A stretch of DNA of 64,000 nt from NCBI GenBank assembly GCA_041394785.1, contig JAWKHO010000014.1:20101-84100 (forward strand). The letters are read 5' to 3'. A program made the translations under genes and the position numbers. Below the pieces are notes generated by a model, which saw only the letters and a list, made by a program, of their open reading frames with translations, did no database searches and was not told the origin of the DNA. The stretch is from Pyrinomonadaceae bacterium. GTDB taxonomy: Bacteria > Acidobacteriota > Blastocatellia > Pyrinomonadales > Pyrinomonadaceae. Below are positions 19,213 to 21,067 of the stretch, one piece after another (within the stretch, counting starts at the first letter, position 1; the number at the start of each line of letters is the position of its first letter).

Positions 19213-19501
19213 AGTCGGTGAAACCGACGAAAGATTGTAGCCCGCGGCGAAAGCCGTGGGTTAGTTGTAAAATTTAATTTCAGCCATTGAAAATGGCGGC
19301 AGGTATCGGCGATTGGAGTGAGATCGCAGTTTTCAATCATTCAAAATCTTCTAGGGATCGATTACAACCATTTCTAAAGAAGCCGGTCATTTATCTGGTT
19401 TTTTGAACGTGACTTTTCAGGTTATCACGACGATTTTCTTTTCTGCCGCCATTTTCAATGGCTCACCGCAATTTGCATGATCGTCCCACGGCTTGCGCCG
19501 T
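19213..19501. repeat. Hairpin-mosaic nested palindromic element interrupted in its right arm by the IS
   Basis: The arms cagccattgaaaatggcggcag (19281..19302) and ctgccgccattttcaatggctc (19443..19464) are near reverse complements (21 of 22). The outer arm gattgtagccc (19233..19243) is completed by gggctacaatc only at 20915..20925. Confidence 0.7.
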
Positions 19502-19590
19502 GATGCAATGAAGTTGATCTCACCACTGACTTTTTGAGCTGCTGATATGATCAACAGTTGAAAAAACAAAGAATCCCGATGAGATCAACT

Positions 19591-20616
19591 ATGAACACAT
19601 TATACATTGGGGTTGATTTTCACCCCTACTCGCAAGTAGTAGCATATATCAGCAAAGATGATGGCGAAATTAAATACCGGTCATTTGACCATTCCGACAA
19701 AAAGTCTCTTCGGAAATTCTACAAAGAGGCAGCTCGTGATTCGATTATCGGAATCGAAGCCACCGGTTCAACACAGTGGTTTGAAAAGATGCTTAACTCG
19801 ATGGGACACACATTGAAAACAGGAAACCCGAGATTGATTCGTCGGATGGCACTCTCTTATCACAAGAGCGACTATCGTGACGCCGAGACTATCCTGGATC
19901 TTCTGGTTAACGGCGTGTTTCCCGAGGTGGAACCGAGATGCGAACAATCGCAGTTGGTTCTATATCTTTTGCGTCAGCGGCAATCGATGGTTCAGCAGCG
20001 GACGGCAAATGCCAATGCTCTTCAGTCTTTTGCCAGAAGAAAGGGTCTCAAGCGTTTTCGTATAAAGCTCAAGAGGGCAAAAGAAATGCTTTTGGAAGCC
20101 TCTGAGAATGAGACTGAGGAATTCATGCTTCGTTCCCGCTTCAAAGTCTACGAACTCTTGTCGGAAGAGATCACTGAGGCAGAAGCGGTGCTTGAAAAGT
20201 ATGCTGCCGATGATGAACGGGTATCGCTTGTCGAAACTCATTCGGGAATCGGTCTTCTGACATCCCTTTGTTTGGTTCATACTCTCGGAGATGTGAGCCG
20301 TTTTGAGCGACCTGCTCAAGTCGCTTCTTTTGTCGGATTTGACCCTATAAATAAGTCATCCGGAGAAAAGAAAAGAATAGGTGAAATAAGTAAAAGGGGT
20401 TCCCGGTTGATGCGTTTTCTGCTTGTCCAGGCTGTACATACGACAAAAGACAAACGCATCCGGGAGTTCTACACAAGAGTTAGCCGCCGACGGGGCATGC
20501 CGATAGCGAAAGTCGCTGCGGCCCGAAAGCTACTGATCAATTGTTACATCATGCTAAGAGATGAAATCGATTATCAGGAATTTTGTCGGCGGGGCGAAGT
20601 TGGTTTGTGCGAGTAG
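19591..20616 (+). CDS. IS110-family DEDD transposase/recombinase
   Basis: The N-terminus MNTLYIGVDFH is the DEDD RuvC-like start. The C-terminus THSGIGLLTSLCLVHTLGDVSRFERPAQVASFVGFDPINKSSGEK is the Transposase_20 signature. The ORF is open from 19558. Confidence 0.9.
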   Translation: MNTLYIGVDFHPYSQVVAYISKDDGEIKYRSFDHSDKKSLRKFYKEAARDSIIGIEATGSTQWFEKMLNSMGHTLKTGNPRLIRRMALSYHKSDYRDAETILDLLVNGVFPEVEPRCEQSQLVLYLLRQRQSMVQQRTANANALQSFARRKGLKRFRIKLKRAKEMLLEASENETEEFMLRSRFKVYELLSEEITEAEAVLEKYAADDERVSLVETHSGIGLLTSLCLVHTLGDVSRFERPAQVASFVGFDPINKSSGEKKRIGEISKRGSRLMRFLLVQAVHTTKDKRIREFYTRVSRRRGMPIAKVAAARKLLINCYIMLRDEIDYQEFCRRGEVGLCE

Positions 20617-20914
20617 CCCAATAAAGGAGCGCGAAGTTTGCGCTTCCTCGTTGCCGTGATGGCACGACCAGCCCTTTCAGACGGGATTCGTCTGAATTGA
20701 ACGAAGCAAGTTTCATGTAGCGGCTGTTTTTATAGCTTGCTCGAATAGATGATTGCAGTCGCCTTAACTGGCGTTACCGCAATTGAAACAAGACATCTAA
20801 CTTAAAAAAGGAGCTTCGGGCATTGTTTGTTTTTTCAAAGAAGTCAGTTAAATTCCAGTGGTGCATCGGCGCCAGCGGAGAGTTGCGCTTGACCTTAAGA
20901 TCAACTTCATAGAT
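20617..20914 (+). ncRNA. Candidate IS-encoded guide RNA (bridge RNA / seekRNA) region
   Basis: A 298-nt non-coding right end contains several hairpins, for example cagacg-ggatt-cgtctg at 20678..20694. It contains gccgtgatg (20653..20661), identical to the left IS-target junction, and atagatg (20745..20751), identical to the right junction. No structure model was run. Confidence 0.35.
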
Positions 20915-21067
20915 GGGCTACAATCTATCGCCATTTTCAATGGCTTGGAACGGATGACTGGTCAATCAATAAGTTTTTAACAAGAGATTGCAAAAGATTT
21001 CCCCATTTATTTTCCATCATCGATCAAGACTTATAGATTTCACAAAAACCGAAAACAATCTCAAGTT

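What the first reader, a model, noticed from the sequence alone, without database searches (positions are those of the whole stretch)
19213..20945. IS1111-type IS110-family element inserted in one arm of a nested palindromic repeat, with a 298-nt 3' non-coding end that may encode a bridge/seek guide RNA
Seen in sequence. The left arm of a palindromic element reads gattgtagccc-gcggcgaaagccgtggg. The matching right arm reads cccacggcttgcgccgt, then about 1.41 kb, then gggctacaatc. The insert therefore spans about 19502..20914, with an uncertainty of a few nt.

The insert encodes a DEDD/Transposase_20 recombinase. It has 13-bp subterminal inverted repeats (19508..19520 and 20898..20910) and GAT at both ends. 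Only about 90 nt are non-coding at the 5' end, against 298 nt at the 3' end.

Established knowledge. IS110-family elements use an IS-encoded bridge RNA (also called seekRNA) with separate target- and donor-binding loops. The IS1111 subgroup carries subterminal inverted repeats and places most of its non-coding sequence downstream of the recombinase. Family members often target REP-like or palindromic sequences.

Inference. The region 20617..20914 is a candidate guide RNA. It contains gccgtgatg (20653..20661), identical to the left flank-IS junction, and atagatg (20745..20751), identical to the right junction. It also contains several local hairpins. An outward-facing TTGACC at 20889..20894 could supply a -35 box to a circle-junction promoter.
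Basis: partly seen in the sequence, partly recalled or inferred. Interest (0 to 1): 0.7.

Follow-up and report, generated by a model that had tools for sequence, protein, structure and literature searches.

The report
RNA-guided insertion sequence in a repeat hairpin
This is an intact jumping gene of the known IS1111/IS110 kind whose own small guide RNA, encoded just after (and partly inside) its transposase gene, directs it into the foot of a repeated two-hairpin element known in Rfam as the orphan 'Acido-Lenti-1 RNA'; it is a clear new example of a known mechanism, not a new mechanism.

Summary
A 1413-bp element (window 19503-20915, flanked by a 2-nt TG core on each side) splits the second of two inverted two-hairpin repeats. 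It has 13-bp subterminal inverted repeats and a 341-aa DEDD/Transposase_20 gene.

- **Guides.** Two short RNA segments covary with each element's own flanks across at least 10 target classes (0 of 20,000 permutations reach the observed match).
- **Closing stem.** One strand of stem P1 lies inside the coding sequence.
- **Other stems.** 94% of stem cells pair, and 19 of 35 pairs show compensatory change.
- **Donor segment and promoter.** The outward TTGACN sits 17-18 nt from a junction-made GATGAT in 40 of 40 relatives.

New points: the target is the Rfam orphan motif Acido-Lenti-1, which looks like a REP-like repeat. This clade also has a covarying pairing between the 5' UTR and the 3' non-coding region, next to a conserved AAGGAG.

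Verdict: a new member of a known kind.

The parts
19213..19260 (-).
   Evidence: cmscan gives 38.5 bits against a gathering score of 37, over the full model (positions 1-46).
19282..19463 (.). Inner inverted repeat (19282-19302 / 19443-19463, 21 nt, 100% complementary). Each arm is itself a GCCATTTTCAATGGC hairpin. Together with the outer copies it forms a mosaic cluster of repeats.
   Evidence: (pairs I2, I4) and direct reading.
19485..19502 (+). Left part of the interrupted second Acido-Lenti-1 copy: 5' strand and loop of hairpin 1, most of its 3' strand (left target), and the left copy of the TG core (19501-02).
   Evidence: (pair I5).
19503..20915 (+). The insertion sequence, 1413 bp counting one TG core copy.
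   Evidence: Ends fixed by the uninterrupted left arm, by an identical copy with another flank (L001) and by conserved ends in about 50 relatives.
19508..19520 (+). Left subterminal inverted repeat ATGAAGTTGATCT. It also pairs with 19580-19590, just before the start codon.
   Evidence: pairs I8, I17.
19558..19577 (+). 5' UTR arm, complementary to 20819-20838.
   Evidence: pair I3; covaries in relatives.
19591..20616 (+). Transposase/recombinase gene, 341 aa. D9, E56, D94, D97 and S256/S257-G258 are invariant among 30 homologues.
20599..20610 (+). 5' strand of stem P1 of the guide RNA, inside the codons for ...EVGLC. It pairs with 20662-20672.
   Evidence: RNAalifold; 100% paired in 40 sequences, 3 pairs with compensatory change.
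20613..20620 (+). T guide GUAGCCCA, complementary to the top strand TG+GGCTAC (core plus right target). It overlaps the stop codon TAG (20614-16).
   Evidence: Covaries with right flanks in relatives.
20625..20648 (+). Hairpin P2 between the two target guides.
   Evidence: A hairpin of at least 6 bp is present in 40 of 40 relatives despite differing sequence and length.
20653..20661 (+). B guide GCCG-UG-AUG. It is identical to the top strand of left target + core + the first 3 nt of the element, and so complementary to the bottom strand.
   Evidence: Covaries with left flanks.
20662..20672 (+). 3' strand of stem P1.
20676..20696 (+). Hairpin P3.
   Evidence: All 6 pairs show compensatory change.
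20702..20755 (+). Candidate donor-binding module. Stems P4 (20702-04 / 20753-55) and P5 (20712-45) surround the invariant AUAGAUGAU (20745-53), which equals right end + core + left end of the circle junction.
   Evidence: The donor segment is invariant, so its role is inferred and not shown by covariation.
20760..20773 (+). Hairpin P6 (CGCC...GGCG); probable 3' limit of the long form of the RNA.
20808..20813 (+). Conserved AAGGAG (AAGGAGG in most relatives) just 5' of the 3' arm.
   Evidence: Nearly invariant in alignment A2; correlates with absence of a 5' Shine-Dalgarno sequence.
20819..20838 (+). 3' arm, complementary to the 5' UTR arm 19558-19577.
20889..20894 (+). Outward TTGACC: the -35 box of a promoter completed by GATGAT once the ends are joined in a circle.
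   Evidence: TTGACN lies 17-18 nt from the junction-made GATGAT in 40 of 40 relatives.
20898..20910 (+). Right subterminal inverted repeat AGATCAACTTCAT.
   Evidence: pair I8.
20916..20946 (+). Right part of the interrupted Acido-Lenti-1 copy: last bases of hairpin 1, the conserved GGCUA linker, and hairpin 2 (GCCATTTTCAATGGC).
   Evidence: (pairs I1, I4); compared with the family seed alignment.

Best explanation
This is an intact, probably active, IS1111-group member of the IS110 family in a Pyrinomonadaceae (Acidobacteriota) genome.

**The RNA.** The DEDD/serine recombinase is guided by an RNA encoded on the same strand at the 3' end of the element.
- It starts inside the last codons of the gene. 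Stem P1 (20599-610 / 20662-672) closes a target-binding loop.
- The 5' side of the loop carries the T guide GUAGCCCA, which pairs with the top strand of core TG + GGCTAC.
- The 3' side, after hairpin P2, carries the B guide GCCG-UG-AUG, which pairs with the bottom strand of GCCG + TG.
- The two guides overlap on the 2-nt TG core where strands are exchanged.
- A second module (P4/P5) displays AUAGAUGAU, identical to the joined right and left ends. It most likely holds the circular donor.

**The cycle.**
- The element excises as a circle.
- Joining the ends creates a promoter (TTGACC, 17 nt, GATGAT) that transcribes the gene and the RNA together.
- The RNA-protein complex then inserts the circle at the 3' foot of hairpin 1 of a repeated two-hairpin element (Acido-Lenti-1), without a target duplication beyond the shared core.

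**Shown versus inferred.**
- Shown here by sequence and comparison: the element ends, the core, the stems, guide-flank covariation, and conservation of the promoter box.
- Inferred from published work on ISEc11, ISPa11 and IS621: transcription, processing, RNA-protein binding, circle formation and the chemistry.
For: **Gene family.**
- Pfam DEDD_Tnp_IS110 plus Transposase_20.
- NCBIfam 'IS110 family RNA-guided transposase', 198 bits.
- Weak sequence matches to the solved IS621 and ISCro4 transposases.

**Ends and core.** About 50 related copies share flank-TG|ATG(C/T)(T/A)ATGAAGTTG ... CTTGAC-N-AACTTCATAGA-TG|flank.

**Mobility.** A 100% identical copy sits next to a different Acido-Lenti-1 copy.

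**Guide covariation, T guide vs target:**
- WIN: GTAGCCCA vs TGGGCTAC.
- L002/L163: GCAGCCCA vs TGGGCTGC.
- L003: TTAGCCA vs TGGCTAA.
- L165: ATTGACCA vs TGGTCAAT.
- L166: ATAGGCA vs TGCCTAT.
- L004 group: GGGGTCAGG vs CCTGACCCC.

**Guide covariation, B guide:** GCCG, TCCG, TTCG, GGCC, GTC, AAGAC, TCAA, CCCC, CCAC and TCACC each match the element's own left flank.

**Statistics and breadth.**
- Cognate score 440 against a shuffled mean of 292 +/- 14 and a maximum of 355; 0 of 20,000 permutations reach it.
- The same P1-T-P2-B-P1 layout, with matching guides, occurs in the 40-48%-identity clade.

**Structure.**
- 94.4% of cells pair, against 33-41% for slid controls.
- 19 of 35 pairs show compensatory change; 0 of 500 shuffles reach the observed values.
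- P2 is present in 40 of 40.
- The fold of this sequence alone reproduces P1, P2, P3, P5 and P6.

**Guide order.** The T guide is 5' of the B guide and the two overlap in the target, as reported for IS1111-type seekRNAs (PMC11187229).

**Junction promoter.** The -35 box is conserved in 40 of 40.
Against: - No transcript, protein-RNA complex or transposition event has been observed for this element; everything is inferred from DNA.
- No Rfam 15 family matched the region, even at E up to 10, and the published IS110/IS1111 covariance models were not available. Membership of a curated RNA family could therefore not be scored.
- The donor segment is invariant, so covariation cannot test it. I found no convincing top-strand donor guide.
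- Some copies have imperfect B guides (L012, L017, L173).
- Related sequences are not independent, so the permutation figures overstate significance somewhat. At least 10 distinct target classes support the signal even so.
Confidence: 0.9

Rival explanations
1. The 3' non-coding region acts only as DNA, for example as transposase-binding sites or end-recognition sequences. On this view the short matches to the flanks are by-products of conserved ends, and no guide RNA is involved.
For: - The donor-like 9-mer and the subterminal repeats are invariant, as expected for protein-binding sites.
- In this one sequence the same-sense match to the bare target is not significant.
Against: - Stems keep pairing through compensatory changes on both sides (19 of 35 pairs). 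Protein-binding DNA does not require this.
- The two guide segments change with the flanks, which lie outside the element, in at least 10 target classes.
Confidence: 0.03
2. The element is real but is a dead relic at this locus. It has no current activity, and the apparent site specificity reflects vertical inheritance of one old insertion.
For: - Only one copy occurs in the 64-kb window.
- Several relatives have frameshifted or truncated genes (L020, L031, L053, L054).
Against: - The ORF is intact, with all catalytic residues.
- A 100% identical copy lies beside a different repeat copy in another dataset, which indicates recent movement.
- The guides match this target perfectly over 8 nt and 6 nt.
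Confidence: 0.05
3. The insertion into the palindrome is driven by DNA structure: a hairpin or cruciform recognised by the protein, as proposed in the past for REP-targeting IS. On this view RNA-DNA base pairing plays no part.
For: Many targets in this clade are hairpin feet. IS110-family elements have long been noted at REP sequences (Tobes and Pareja 2006, cited in PMC11208160).
Against: - Other relatives insert at sequences for which I saw no obvious hairpin, such as ...GCAGGCC TG ACCCC... and ...TTCG TG GCTAAA... (I did not fold the L004-group sites). Their guides match those sequences.
- L002 and L163 use the 5' strand of the hairpin, where the same 9-nt sequence recurs.
- Sequence therefore predicts the site, and position in the hairpin does not.
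Confidence: 0.02

Closest known systems
IS1111-group elements with a seekRNA (ISEc11, ISPa11, ISKpn4, ISPst6; Siddiquee et al. 2024, PMC11187229)
   Same: - Subterminal inverted repeats.
- A 330-350-aa DEDD transposase with the G-L/F-x-P-x-x-x-x-S-G motif.
- The long non-coding region lies downstream of the gene.
- The RNA carries a top-strand match 5' of a bottom-strand match, overlapping in the target.
- A promoter is formed at the circle junction.
- The flank-element junctions also match the guides.
   Different: - Only about 27% protein identity to IS4321 and IS5708.
- The host is an acidobacterium.
- The closing stem and the T guide lie inside or over the end of the coding sequence.
- The target is the Acido-Lenti-1 repeat.
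- The clade has an extra covarying pairing between the 5' UTR and the 3' non-coding region next to a conserved AAGGAG. IS4321 lacks this.
IS621 / IS110-group bridge RNA (Durrant et al. 2024, PMC11208160; Hiraizumi et al. 2024, PMC11208158)
   Same: - Two-module RNA logic.
- Both DNA strands are read around a 2-nt core.
- DEDD plus serine composite active site.
- A REP-like target.
- Weak sequence similarity to the solved IS621 transposase (E 4e-5).
   Different: - Here the RNA is 3' of the gene, not 5'.
- The guide order is reversed.
- The core is TG, not CT.
- The target loop is a multi-branch loop with an inserted hairpin (P2), not a simple internal loop.
- A top-strand donor guide is not evident.
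REP-targeting IS110-family elements (ISPpu9, ISPpu10, ISPa11)
   Same: Insertion at a fixed position in a repeated extragenic palindrome, in one orientation.
   Different: The repeat here is the two-hairpin Acido-Lenti-1 family of Acidobacteria/Lentisphaerae. I found no paper in the searched library that links it to an insertion sequence.
Acido-Lenti-1 RNA motif (Rfam RF01687; Weinberg et al. 2010, PMC2864571)
   Same: The left arm scores above the gathering threshold. The rebuilt right arm has the same 8-bp hairpin, GGCUA linker and second hairpin. One soil clone in the seed alignment is nearly identical to this target.
   Different: Rfam files it as a candidate sRNA gene of unknown function. 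Here it behaves as a multi-copy, inverted or tandem REP-like repeat and as a landing site for a mobile element.

Membership tests
IS110 family (DEDD transposase IS) | Transposase with an N-terminal DEDD (RuvC-like) domain and a C-terminal Transposase_20 domain carrying the conserved Ser-Gly. | tested here: met
   - Pfam PF01548 and PF02371 both score above their cut-offs.
- NCBIfam NF033542 scores 198 bits against a cut-off of 140.
- D9, E56, D94, D97 and S256/S257-G258 are invariant in 30 homologues.
IS110 family (DEDD transposase IS) | Site-specific insertion with no target duplication beyond a short core shared by target and element ends. | tested here: met
   The rebuilt site equals the intact arm. 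Only TG is shared at both junctions.
IS1111 group | Subterminal inverted repeats of 7-17 bp. | tested here: met
   A 13-bp perfect pair, set 5 nt and 3 nt in from the ends. It is 15 bp in L002 and L162-L164.
IS1111 group | The longer non-coding region lies downstream of the transposase gene. | tested here: met
   88 nt upstream against 299 nt downstream.
IS1111 group | Transposase of 330-350 aa with the GL-P----S(t)G motif, related over its full length to IS1111-type transposases. | tested here: met
   - 341 aa, with the motif G-F-D-P-I-N-K-S-S-G.
- Matches of about 27% identity to IS5708 over 82% of the query and to IS4321 over 68%.
- No phylogeny against ISfinder was possible.
seekRNA / bridge RNA of IS1111 type | The RNA carries one segment complementary to the top strand and one to the bottom strand of the target. 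They overlap at the insertion point, with the top-strand match 5' of the bottom-strand match. | tested here: met
   T guide at 20613-20 and B guide at 20653-61, overlapping on TG. Both covary with flanks.
seekRNA / bridge RNA of IS1111 type | Conserved secondary structure supported by covariation. | tested here: met
seekRNA / bridge RNA of IS1111 type | Donor-binding loop with guides for both strands of the joined ends. | tested here: inconclusive
   The invariant AUAGAUGAU equals the junction top strand. No clear top-strand-complementary donor guide was found, and there is no variation to test.
seekRNA / bridge RNA of IS1111 type | Match to the published IS110/IS1111 covariance models or to a curated RNA family. 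| not testable with these tools
   Rfam 15 gave no hit in 20597-20915 at E up to 10. The models of Durrant et al. are not in the library.
seekRNA / bridge RNA of IS1111 type | The RNA is expressed, binds the transposase and is required for movement. | not testable with these tools
   This needs RNA-seq, pull-down and transposition assays.
Acido-Lenti-1 (RF01687), as the target | An 8-bp hairpin with a 4-nt loop, a GGCUA-containing 12-nt linker, and a second 5-bp hairpin. | tested here: met
   - The left arm passes the gathering score.
- The rebuilt right arm fits by direct reading and by folding.
- It could not be scanned with the Rfam model, because only stored sequence can be searched.

The most novel reading that the evidence does not exclude
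In this Blastocatellia clade the transposase gene has lost its own Shine-Dalgarno sequence. Instead, a conserved AAGGAG(G) sits in the 3' non-coding region (20808-13), immediately before a 20-nt arm (20819-38). That arm base-pairs, with covariation, to the 5' UTR (19558-77), which ends 12-18 nt before the AUG.

The most novel reading is a 'split' ribosome-binding site. Translation would require the 3' guide-RNA region to fold back onto the 5' UTR, either within a full-length transcript or across the circle junction. That would couple production of the recombinase to the presence of its guide RNA or to the excised state.

Support:
- Cognate duplexes average -30.1 kcal/mol against -19.7 for non-cognate pairs; 0 of 10,000 permutations reach the observed sum.
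- All of the roughly 40 elements with the 3' AAGGAG lack a 5' SD.
- L019 and L092 keep the arms, have a 5' (A/G)GGAGG and lack the 3' motif.
- The 40-48% clade and IS4321 have a 5' SD and no arms.

Against:
- The through-helix SD-to-AUG distance (12-18 nt) is long.
- The arms persist without the 3' SD in L019 and L092, so they have some other role too.
- No expression data exist.
Probability: 0.2. Interest if true: 0.6.

Novelty: new member of a known kind. Interest (0 to 1): 0.4.

Why it matters
For bridge/seek RNA biology this is a clean natural 'reprogramming series'. Dozens of related elements in uncultured soil Acidobacteria have swapped 6-10-nt guides to follow different targets. That gives ready-made design rules for the less-studied IS1111 architecture: T guide, hairpin, B guide, all closed by a stem that overlaps the coding sequence.

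It also gives an orphan Rfam family a likely identity. Acido-Lenti-1 looks like a REP-like repeat that attracts mobile elements. Weinberg et al. noted it near group II introns, and that proximity could have the same cause. Annotation pipelines should not call it an sRNA gene without caution.

For genome annotation, the guide RNA of such elements can start inside the transposase ORF. Apparent C-terminal extensions of the ORF in relatives are RNA sequence read as protein.

Tried and rejected
1. **Rfam 15 scans.** The locus (E up to 10), the whole window and 20 related loci gave no bridge/seek RNA family. No intact Acido-Lenti-1 copy appeared in the related loci, where the targets are interrupted.

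2. **TGTAGC at about 20707 as the right-target guide.** Rejected. TTTCATGTAGC is nearly constant in relatives whatever their target, and it forms stem P5. The real T guide is at 20613-20.

3. **CCAGCCC (about 20668) as a guide.** Rejected. It is the 3' strand of P1.

4. **A top-strand donor guide.** I looked at ATTGCA/ATGGCA after the donor 9-mer, the 5' side of the P4/P5 loop, and TTTCAT-GT-AGCA with a bulge. None tracks the few left-end variants consistently. The T/G difference after GATGAT is explained by P4 pairing.

5. **A small ORF after AAGGAG.** The reading frame and length are not conserved between relatives (reading).

6. **An internal sigma-70 promoter for the RNA.** None was found above the shuffle expectation.

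7. **The metagenome protein scan.** Close relatives came from exact-protein look-ups instead.

8. **A covariance model.** I did not build one: alignment-based counts were already clear, and custom (rebuilt empty-site) sequences cannot be searched.
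Full report
**1. The observation**

- The left arm gattgtagcccgcggcgaaagccgtggg lies at 19233-19260.
- Its inverted partner is split into cccacggcttgcgccgt (19485-19501) and gggctacaatc (20915-20925).
- Rejoined, the partner is the reverse complement of the left arm with 2 mismatches in 28 nt.
- The insert carries a perfect 13-bp inverted repeat at 19508-19520 / 20898-20910 (pair I8).
- It also carries one long ORF, 19591-20616, of 341 aa.
- The ORF matches Pfam DEDD_Tnp_IS110 and Transposase_20, NCBIfam 'IS110 family RNA-guided transposase' at 198 bits against a cut-off of 140, and, weakly, the solved IS621 and ISCro4 transposases.
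- The dinucleotide TG is present at both junctions (19501-02 and 20914-15). This is the only ambiguity in the ends, so the element is 1413 bp counting one TG.

**2. Independent proof of the ends and of mobility**

The exact protein is also encoded on a 1475-bp contig from an unrelated sequencing run (L001). That contig is 100% identical to window 19501-20922 and then diverges. Its right flank, GGGCTACAGATATGTCGTCGGTTTCACCGACT, is another copy of the same two-hairpin repeat. The same element therefore sits at the same position of a different repeat copy.

The protein cluster is labelled as coming from a Pyrinomonadaceae MAG.

**3. What the palindrome is**

The left arm (19213-19260, minus strand) matches Rfam RF01687, Acido-Lenti-1, at 38.5 bits against a gathering score of 37. 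It is the only Rfam hit above threshold in the 64-kb window.

The rebuilt right arm reads CCCACGGC-UUGC-GCCGUGGG-CUACAAUCUAUC-GCCAU-UUUCA-AUGGC. It has the same 8-bp hairpin, GGCUA-containing linker and second hairpin, with compensatory changes in hairpin 2.

The original seed alignment of this motif (Weinberg et al. 2010, supplement) shows:
- 89 copies, many in arrays 70-200 nt apart;
- an almost invariant GGCUA after hairpin 1;
- one soil clone (CCCACGGCUGACGCUGUGGGCUAC...) nearly identical to the present target.

Between the two copies in the window lies a further perfect 21-nt inverted repeat whose arms are hairpins of the hairpin-2 type (pairs I2 and I4). The locus is thus a mosaic cluster of palindromic repeats of the REP/BIME kind. 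The element is inserted at the 3' foot of hairpin 1: GCCG-TG^GGCUAC.

**4. Relatives**

I collected sequences from three sources:
- a protein search;
- one scan each of genome contigs and metagenome contigs;
- exact-protein look-ups.

Together these gave about 170 loci, nearly all from Blastocatellia/Pyrinomonadaceae assemblies. About 50 copies at 57-100% protein identity share the ends flank-TG|ATG(C/T)(T/A)ATGAAGTTG... and ...CTTGAC-N-AACTTCATAGA-TG|flank. Their flanks differ, which is what makes the test of the guide-RNA idea possible.

**5. The guide RNA**

Immediately after the conserved C-terminal codons (…GEVGLC) every element has the same layout.

*First target guide (T).* A short segment is complementary to the top strand of core + right flank:

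| Element | T guide | Own target |
|---|---|---|
| Window copy | GTAGCCCA | TGGGCTAC |
| L002 / L163 | GCAGCCCA | TGGGCTGC |
| L003 | TTAGCCA | TGGCTAA |
| L165 | ATTGACCA | TGGTCAAT |
| L166-168 | ATAGGCA | TGCCTAT |
| L083 | GAATGCA | TGCATTC |
| L004 group | GGGGTCAGG | CCTGACCCC |

*Hairpin P2.* A hairpin of variable sequence and length follows. It is present in 40 of 40 elements.

*Second target guide (B).* A segment identical to left flank + core + ATG comes next. Examples are GCCGTGATG here, TCCGTGA, TTCGTGATG, GGCCTGATG, GTCTGATG, AAGACTGA, TCAATGATG, CCCCTGATG and TCACCTGATG.

*Statistics.* Scored in fixed register, the guides match their own targets far better than other elements' targets. 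The cognate sum is 440, against a permuted mean of 292 +/- 14 and a maximum of 355; 0 of 20,000 permutations reach it. The sequences are related, so the p-value is not exact, but at least 10 distinct target classes contribute.

*Breadth.* The more distant clade (40-48% identity) shows the same layout with its own matching guides. Examples are L025 TTTTGTCTCA vs TGAGACAAA, and L036 TCTTTCCGCA vs TGCGGAAAG.

*Agreement with published work.* The top-strand match lies 5' of the bottom-strand match, and the two overlap at the insertion point. Siddiquee et al. reported exactly this for IS1111-type seekRNAs, and the reverse order for IS110-type ones (PMC11187229).

**6. Structure**

RNAalifold on 40 aligned RNA regions (A2) and explicit pair counting support five helices.

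| Helix | Window coordinates | Note |
|---|---|---|
| P1 | 20599-610 with 20662-672 | 100% paired; 5' strand lies in the coding sequence |
| P3 | 20676-96 | All six pairs compensatory |
| P4 | 20702-04 with 20753-55 | |
| P5 | 20712-45 | |
| P6 | 20760-73 | |

Overall:
- 94.4% of cells pair, against 33-41% when partners are slid by 1-3 columns.
- 19 of 35 pairs show changes on both sides.
- No shuffle out of 500 reaches the observed values.
- The single-sequence fold of 20596-20775 reproduces P1, P2, P3, P5 and P6 (-61.4 kcal/mol, z = -2.1).

P1 closes a multi-branch loop. Its 5' side is the T guide (20613-20, overlapping the TAG stop at 20614-16) and its 3' side is the B guide (20653-61).

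In many relatives the ORF runs on through this region. However, the P2 segment varies by lengths that are not multiples of three (31-38, 41, 52-53 and 74-76 nt). The conservation is therefore at the RNA level and not the protein level.

From P1 to P3 is about 100 nt, and from P1 to P6 about 175 nt. These sizes are close to the published short (70-100 nt) and long (145-170 nt) seekRNA forms.

**7. Donor side and promoter**

This 9-mer is essentially invariant (38 of 40, with two single-base variants) and is identical to right end + TG + left end of the circle junction (…CATAGA-TG-ATG…). It sits on the 3' side of the loop closed by P4, in the same relative place as the B guide in the first module.

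Because the ends hardly vary, its role cannot be tested by covariation. I also found no convincing top-strand donor guide. Durrant et al. likewise note that donor-binding nucleotides of IS1111 RNAs sit in multi-loops and are less clear.

The outward TTGACC (20889-94) is conserved as TTGACN, 17-18 nt upstream of a GATGAT hexamer that exists only when the ends are joined. This holds in all 40 relatives examined. A junction promoter of this kind is documented for ISEc11 and ISEc21.

**8. Targets across the clade**

For the window-like sub-clade (65-100% identity) the rebuilt empty sites are all two-hairpin elements: hairpin 1, a CTA/CCTA linker, then hairpin 2. The element sits at the foot of hairpin 1 (WIN, L162, L166-168, L172-174, L088). 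In L002 and L163 it sits at the same 9-nt sequence where this recurs on the 5' strand.

The T guides all read the conserved GGCUA core of the motif. Other sub-clades have moved to other conserved sequences, such as ...AATCGCAGGCC-TG-ACCCC... in many MAGs. Sequence complementarity therefore predicts the site, and hairpin geometry does not.

**9. Comparison with what is known**

This is the IS1111-type seekRNA/bridge-RNA system described in 2024 (PMC11187229, PMC11208160, PMC11208158). All family-defining features I could test are met; see the membership table.

It is a distant member, with about 27% protein identity to IS4321 and IS5708. It comes from a phylum where, as far as the searched literature shows, no such element has been characterised.

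Differences of detail:
- the core is TG;
- the target loop carries an inserted hairpin;
- the RNA overlaps the coding sequence;
- the target is the Acido-Lenti-1 repeat.

None of these changes the mechanism, so I rate it a new member of a known kind.

**10. An unexplained extra**

A 20-nt stretch of the 5' UTR (19558-77) is complementary to 20819-38 in the 3' non-coding region (pair I3).
- The pairing is kept, with different sequences, in the relatives.
- Cognate duplexes average -30.1 kcal/mol against -19.7 for mismatched partners; 0 of 10,000 permutations reach the observed sum.
- Directly 5' of the 3' arm lies a nearly invariant AAGGAG(G).
- These elements have no Shine-Dalgarno sequence before the AUG.
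- Two relatives (L019, L092) keep the arms, carry (A/G)GGAGG before the AUG and lack the 3' motif.
- The 40-48% clade and IS4321 have an ordinary 5' SD and no arms.

One reading is that the ribosome-binding site is supplied by the 3' region through the pairing, tying translation to the guide-RNA region or to the circle. The spacing (12-18 nt) is poor for this and there are no expression data, so I give it about 0.2.

In addition, the left subterminal repeat pairs with the 11 nt just before the AUG (pair I17). By eye this pairing is compensated in relatives. It is the classic arrangement for blocking translation of read-through transcripts.

**11. Verdict**

- Novelty is modest. Interest is 0.4, mainly for three reasons: the clean natural series of reprogrammed guides, the reinterpretation of Acido-Lenti-1, and the 5'-3' pairing lead.

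Noticed in passing
window 19558-19577 and 20819-20838: A 20-nt complementarity between the 5' UTR and the 3' non-coding region. It is conserved through compensatory change in about 33 relatives (cognate -30.1 vs non-cognate -19.7 kcal/mol; 0 of 10,000 permutations). It is absent from IS4321 and from the 40-48% clade.
   Followed up: yes
window 20808-20813 (AAGGAG), and 19578-19590: A Shine-Dalgarno-like AAGGAG(G) is nearly invariant in the 3' non-coding region just before the 3' arm, while the transposase AUG has no SD. L019 and L092 show the reverse: a 5' SD present and the 3' motif absent. This may be a split ribosome-binding site.
   Followed up: partly
window 19512-19522 and 19580-19590: The left subterminal repeat is perfectly complementary to the 11 nt just before the start codon. 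Relatives keep the pairing with changed sequence (GATCTCGCGGG/CCCACGAGATC; GATCCCGACGG/CCGACGGGATC). It probably sequesters the start region in read-through transcripts.
   Followed up: partly
window 19213-19501 plus 20916-20946: The intergenic region is a mosaic. Two Acido-Lenti-1 copies lie in inverted orientation, with an inner perfect 21-nt inverted repeat whose arms are hairpin-2-type hairpins. There are three copies of GCCATTTTCAATGGC in all. It resembles the REP/BIME clusters of enterobacteria.
   Followed up: partly
L004-L017, L084-L091 (3' end of the transposase ORF): In many relatives the ORF continues 10-25 codons through the T guide, P2 and the B guide (…CEGSGEV…). The segment length varies out of frame, so these 'C-terminal extensions' are guide-RNA sequence read as protein.
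   Followed up: yes
L004:2484-2531 and L084:1393-1440: The last 24 nt of the right end (ACTATCGAGTGAACTTCATAGATG in L004) are duplicated in tandem. L004 also carries a second, diverged copy of the element about 400 nt downstream.
   Followed up: no
L004-L017, L020, L038, L055, L085-L091 (flanks): The largest sub-clade inserts at a different conserved sequence, (G/A)AAT(C/T)GCA(G/A)G(C/A/T)C-TG-ACCCC, found in many different MAGs. I did not identify what this sequence is.
   Followed up: no
L003:1277-1310, L013 and L050 (loop of P5), L019 near the right end: A module of about 30 nt, CTTGAAGG(A/T)AACTTCG-N-(G)TGTGGGCAT, appears at different positions in different elements, as if it were a small insertion or a portable hairpin.
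   Followed up: no
window 20775-20800: A conserved single-stranded stretch YTGAAA-N(5-9)-CTAAC lies between P6 and AAGGAG in nearly all relatives. Its role is unknown.
   Followed up: no
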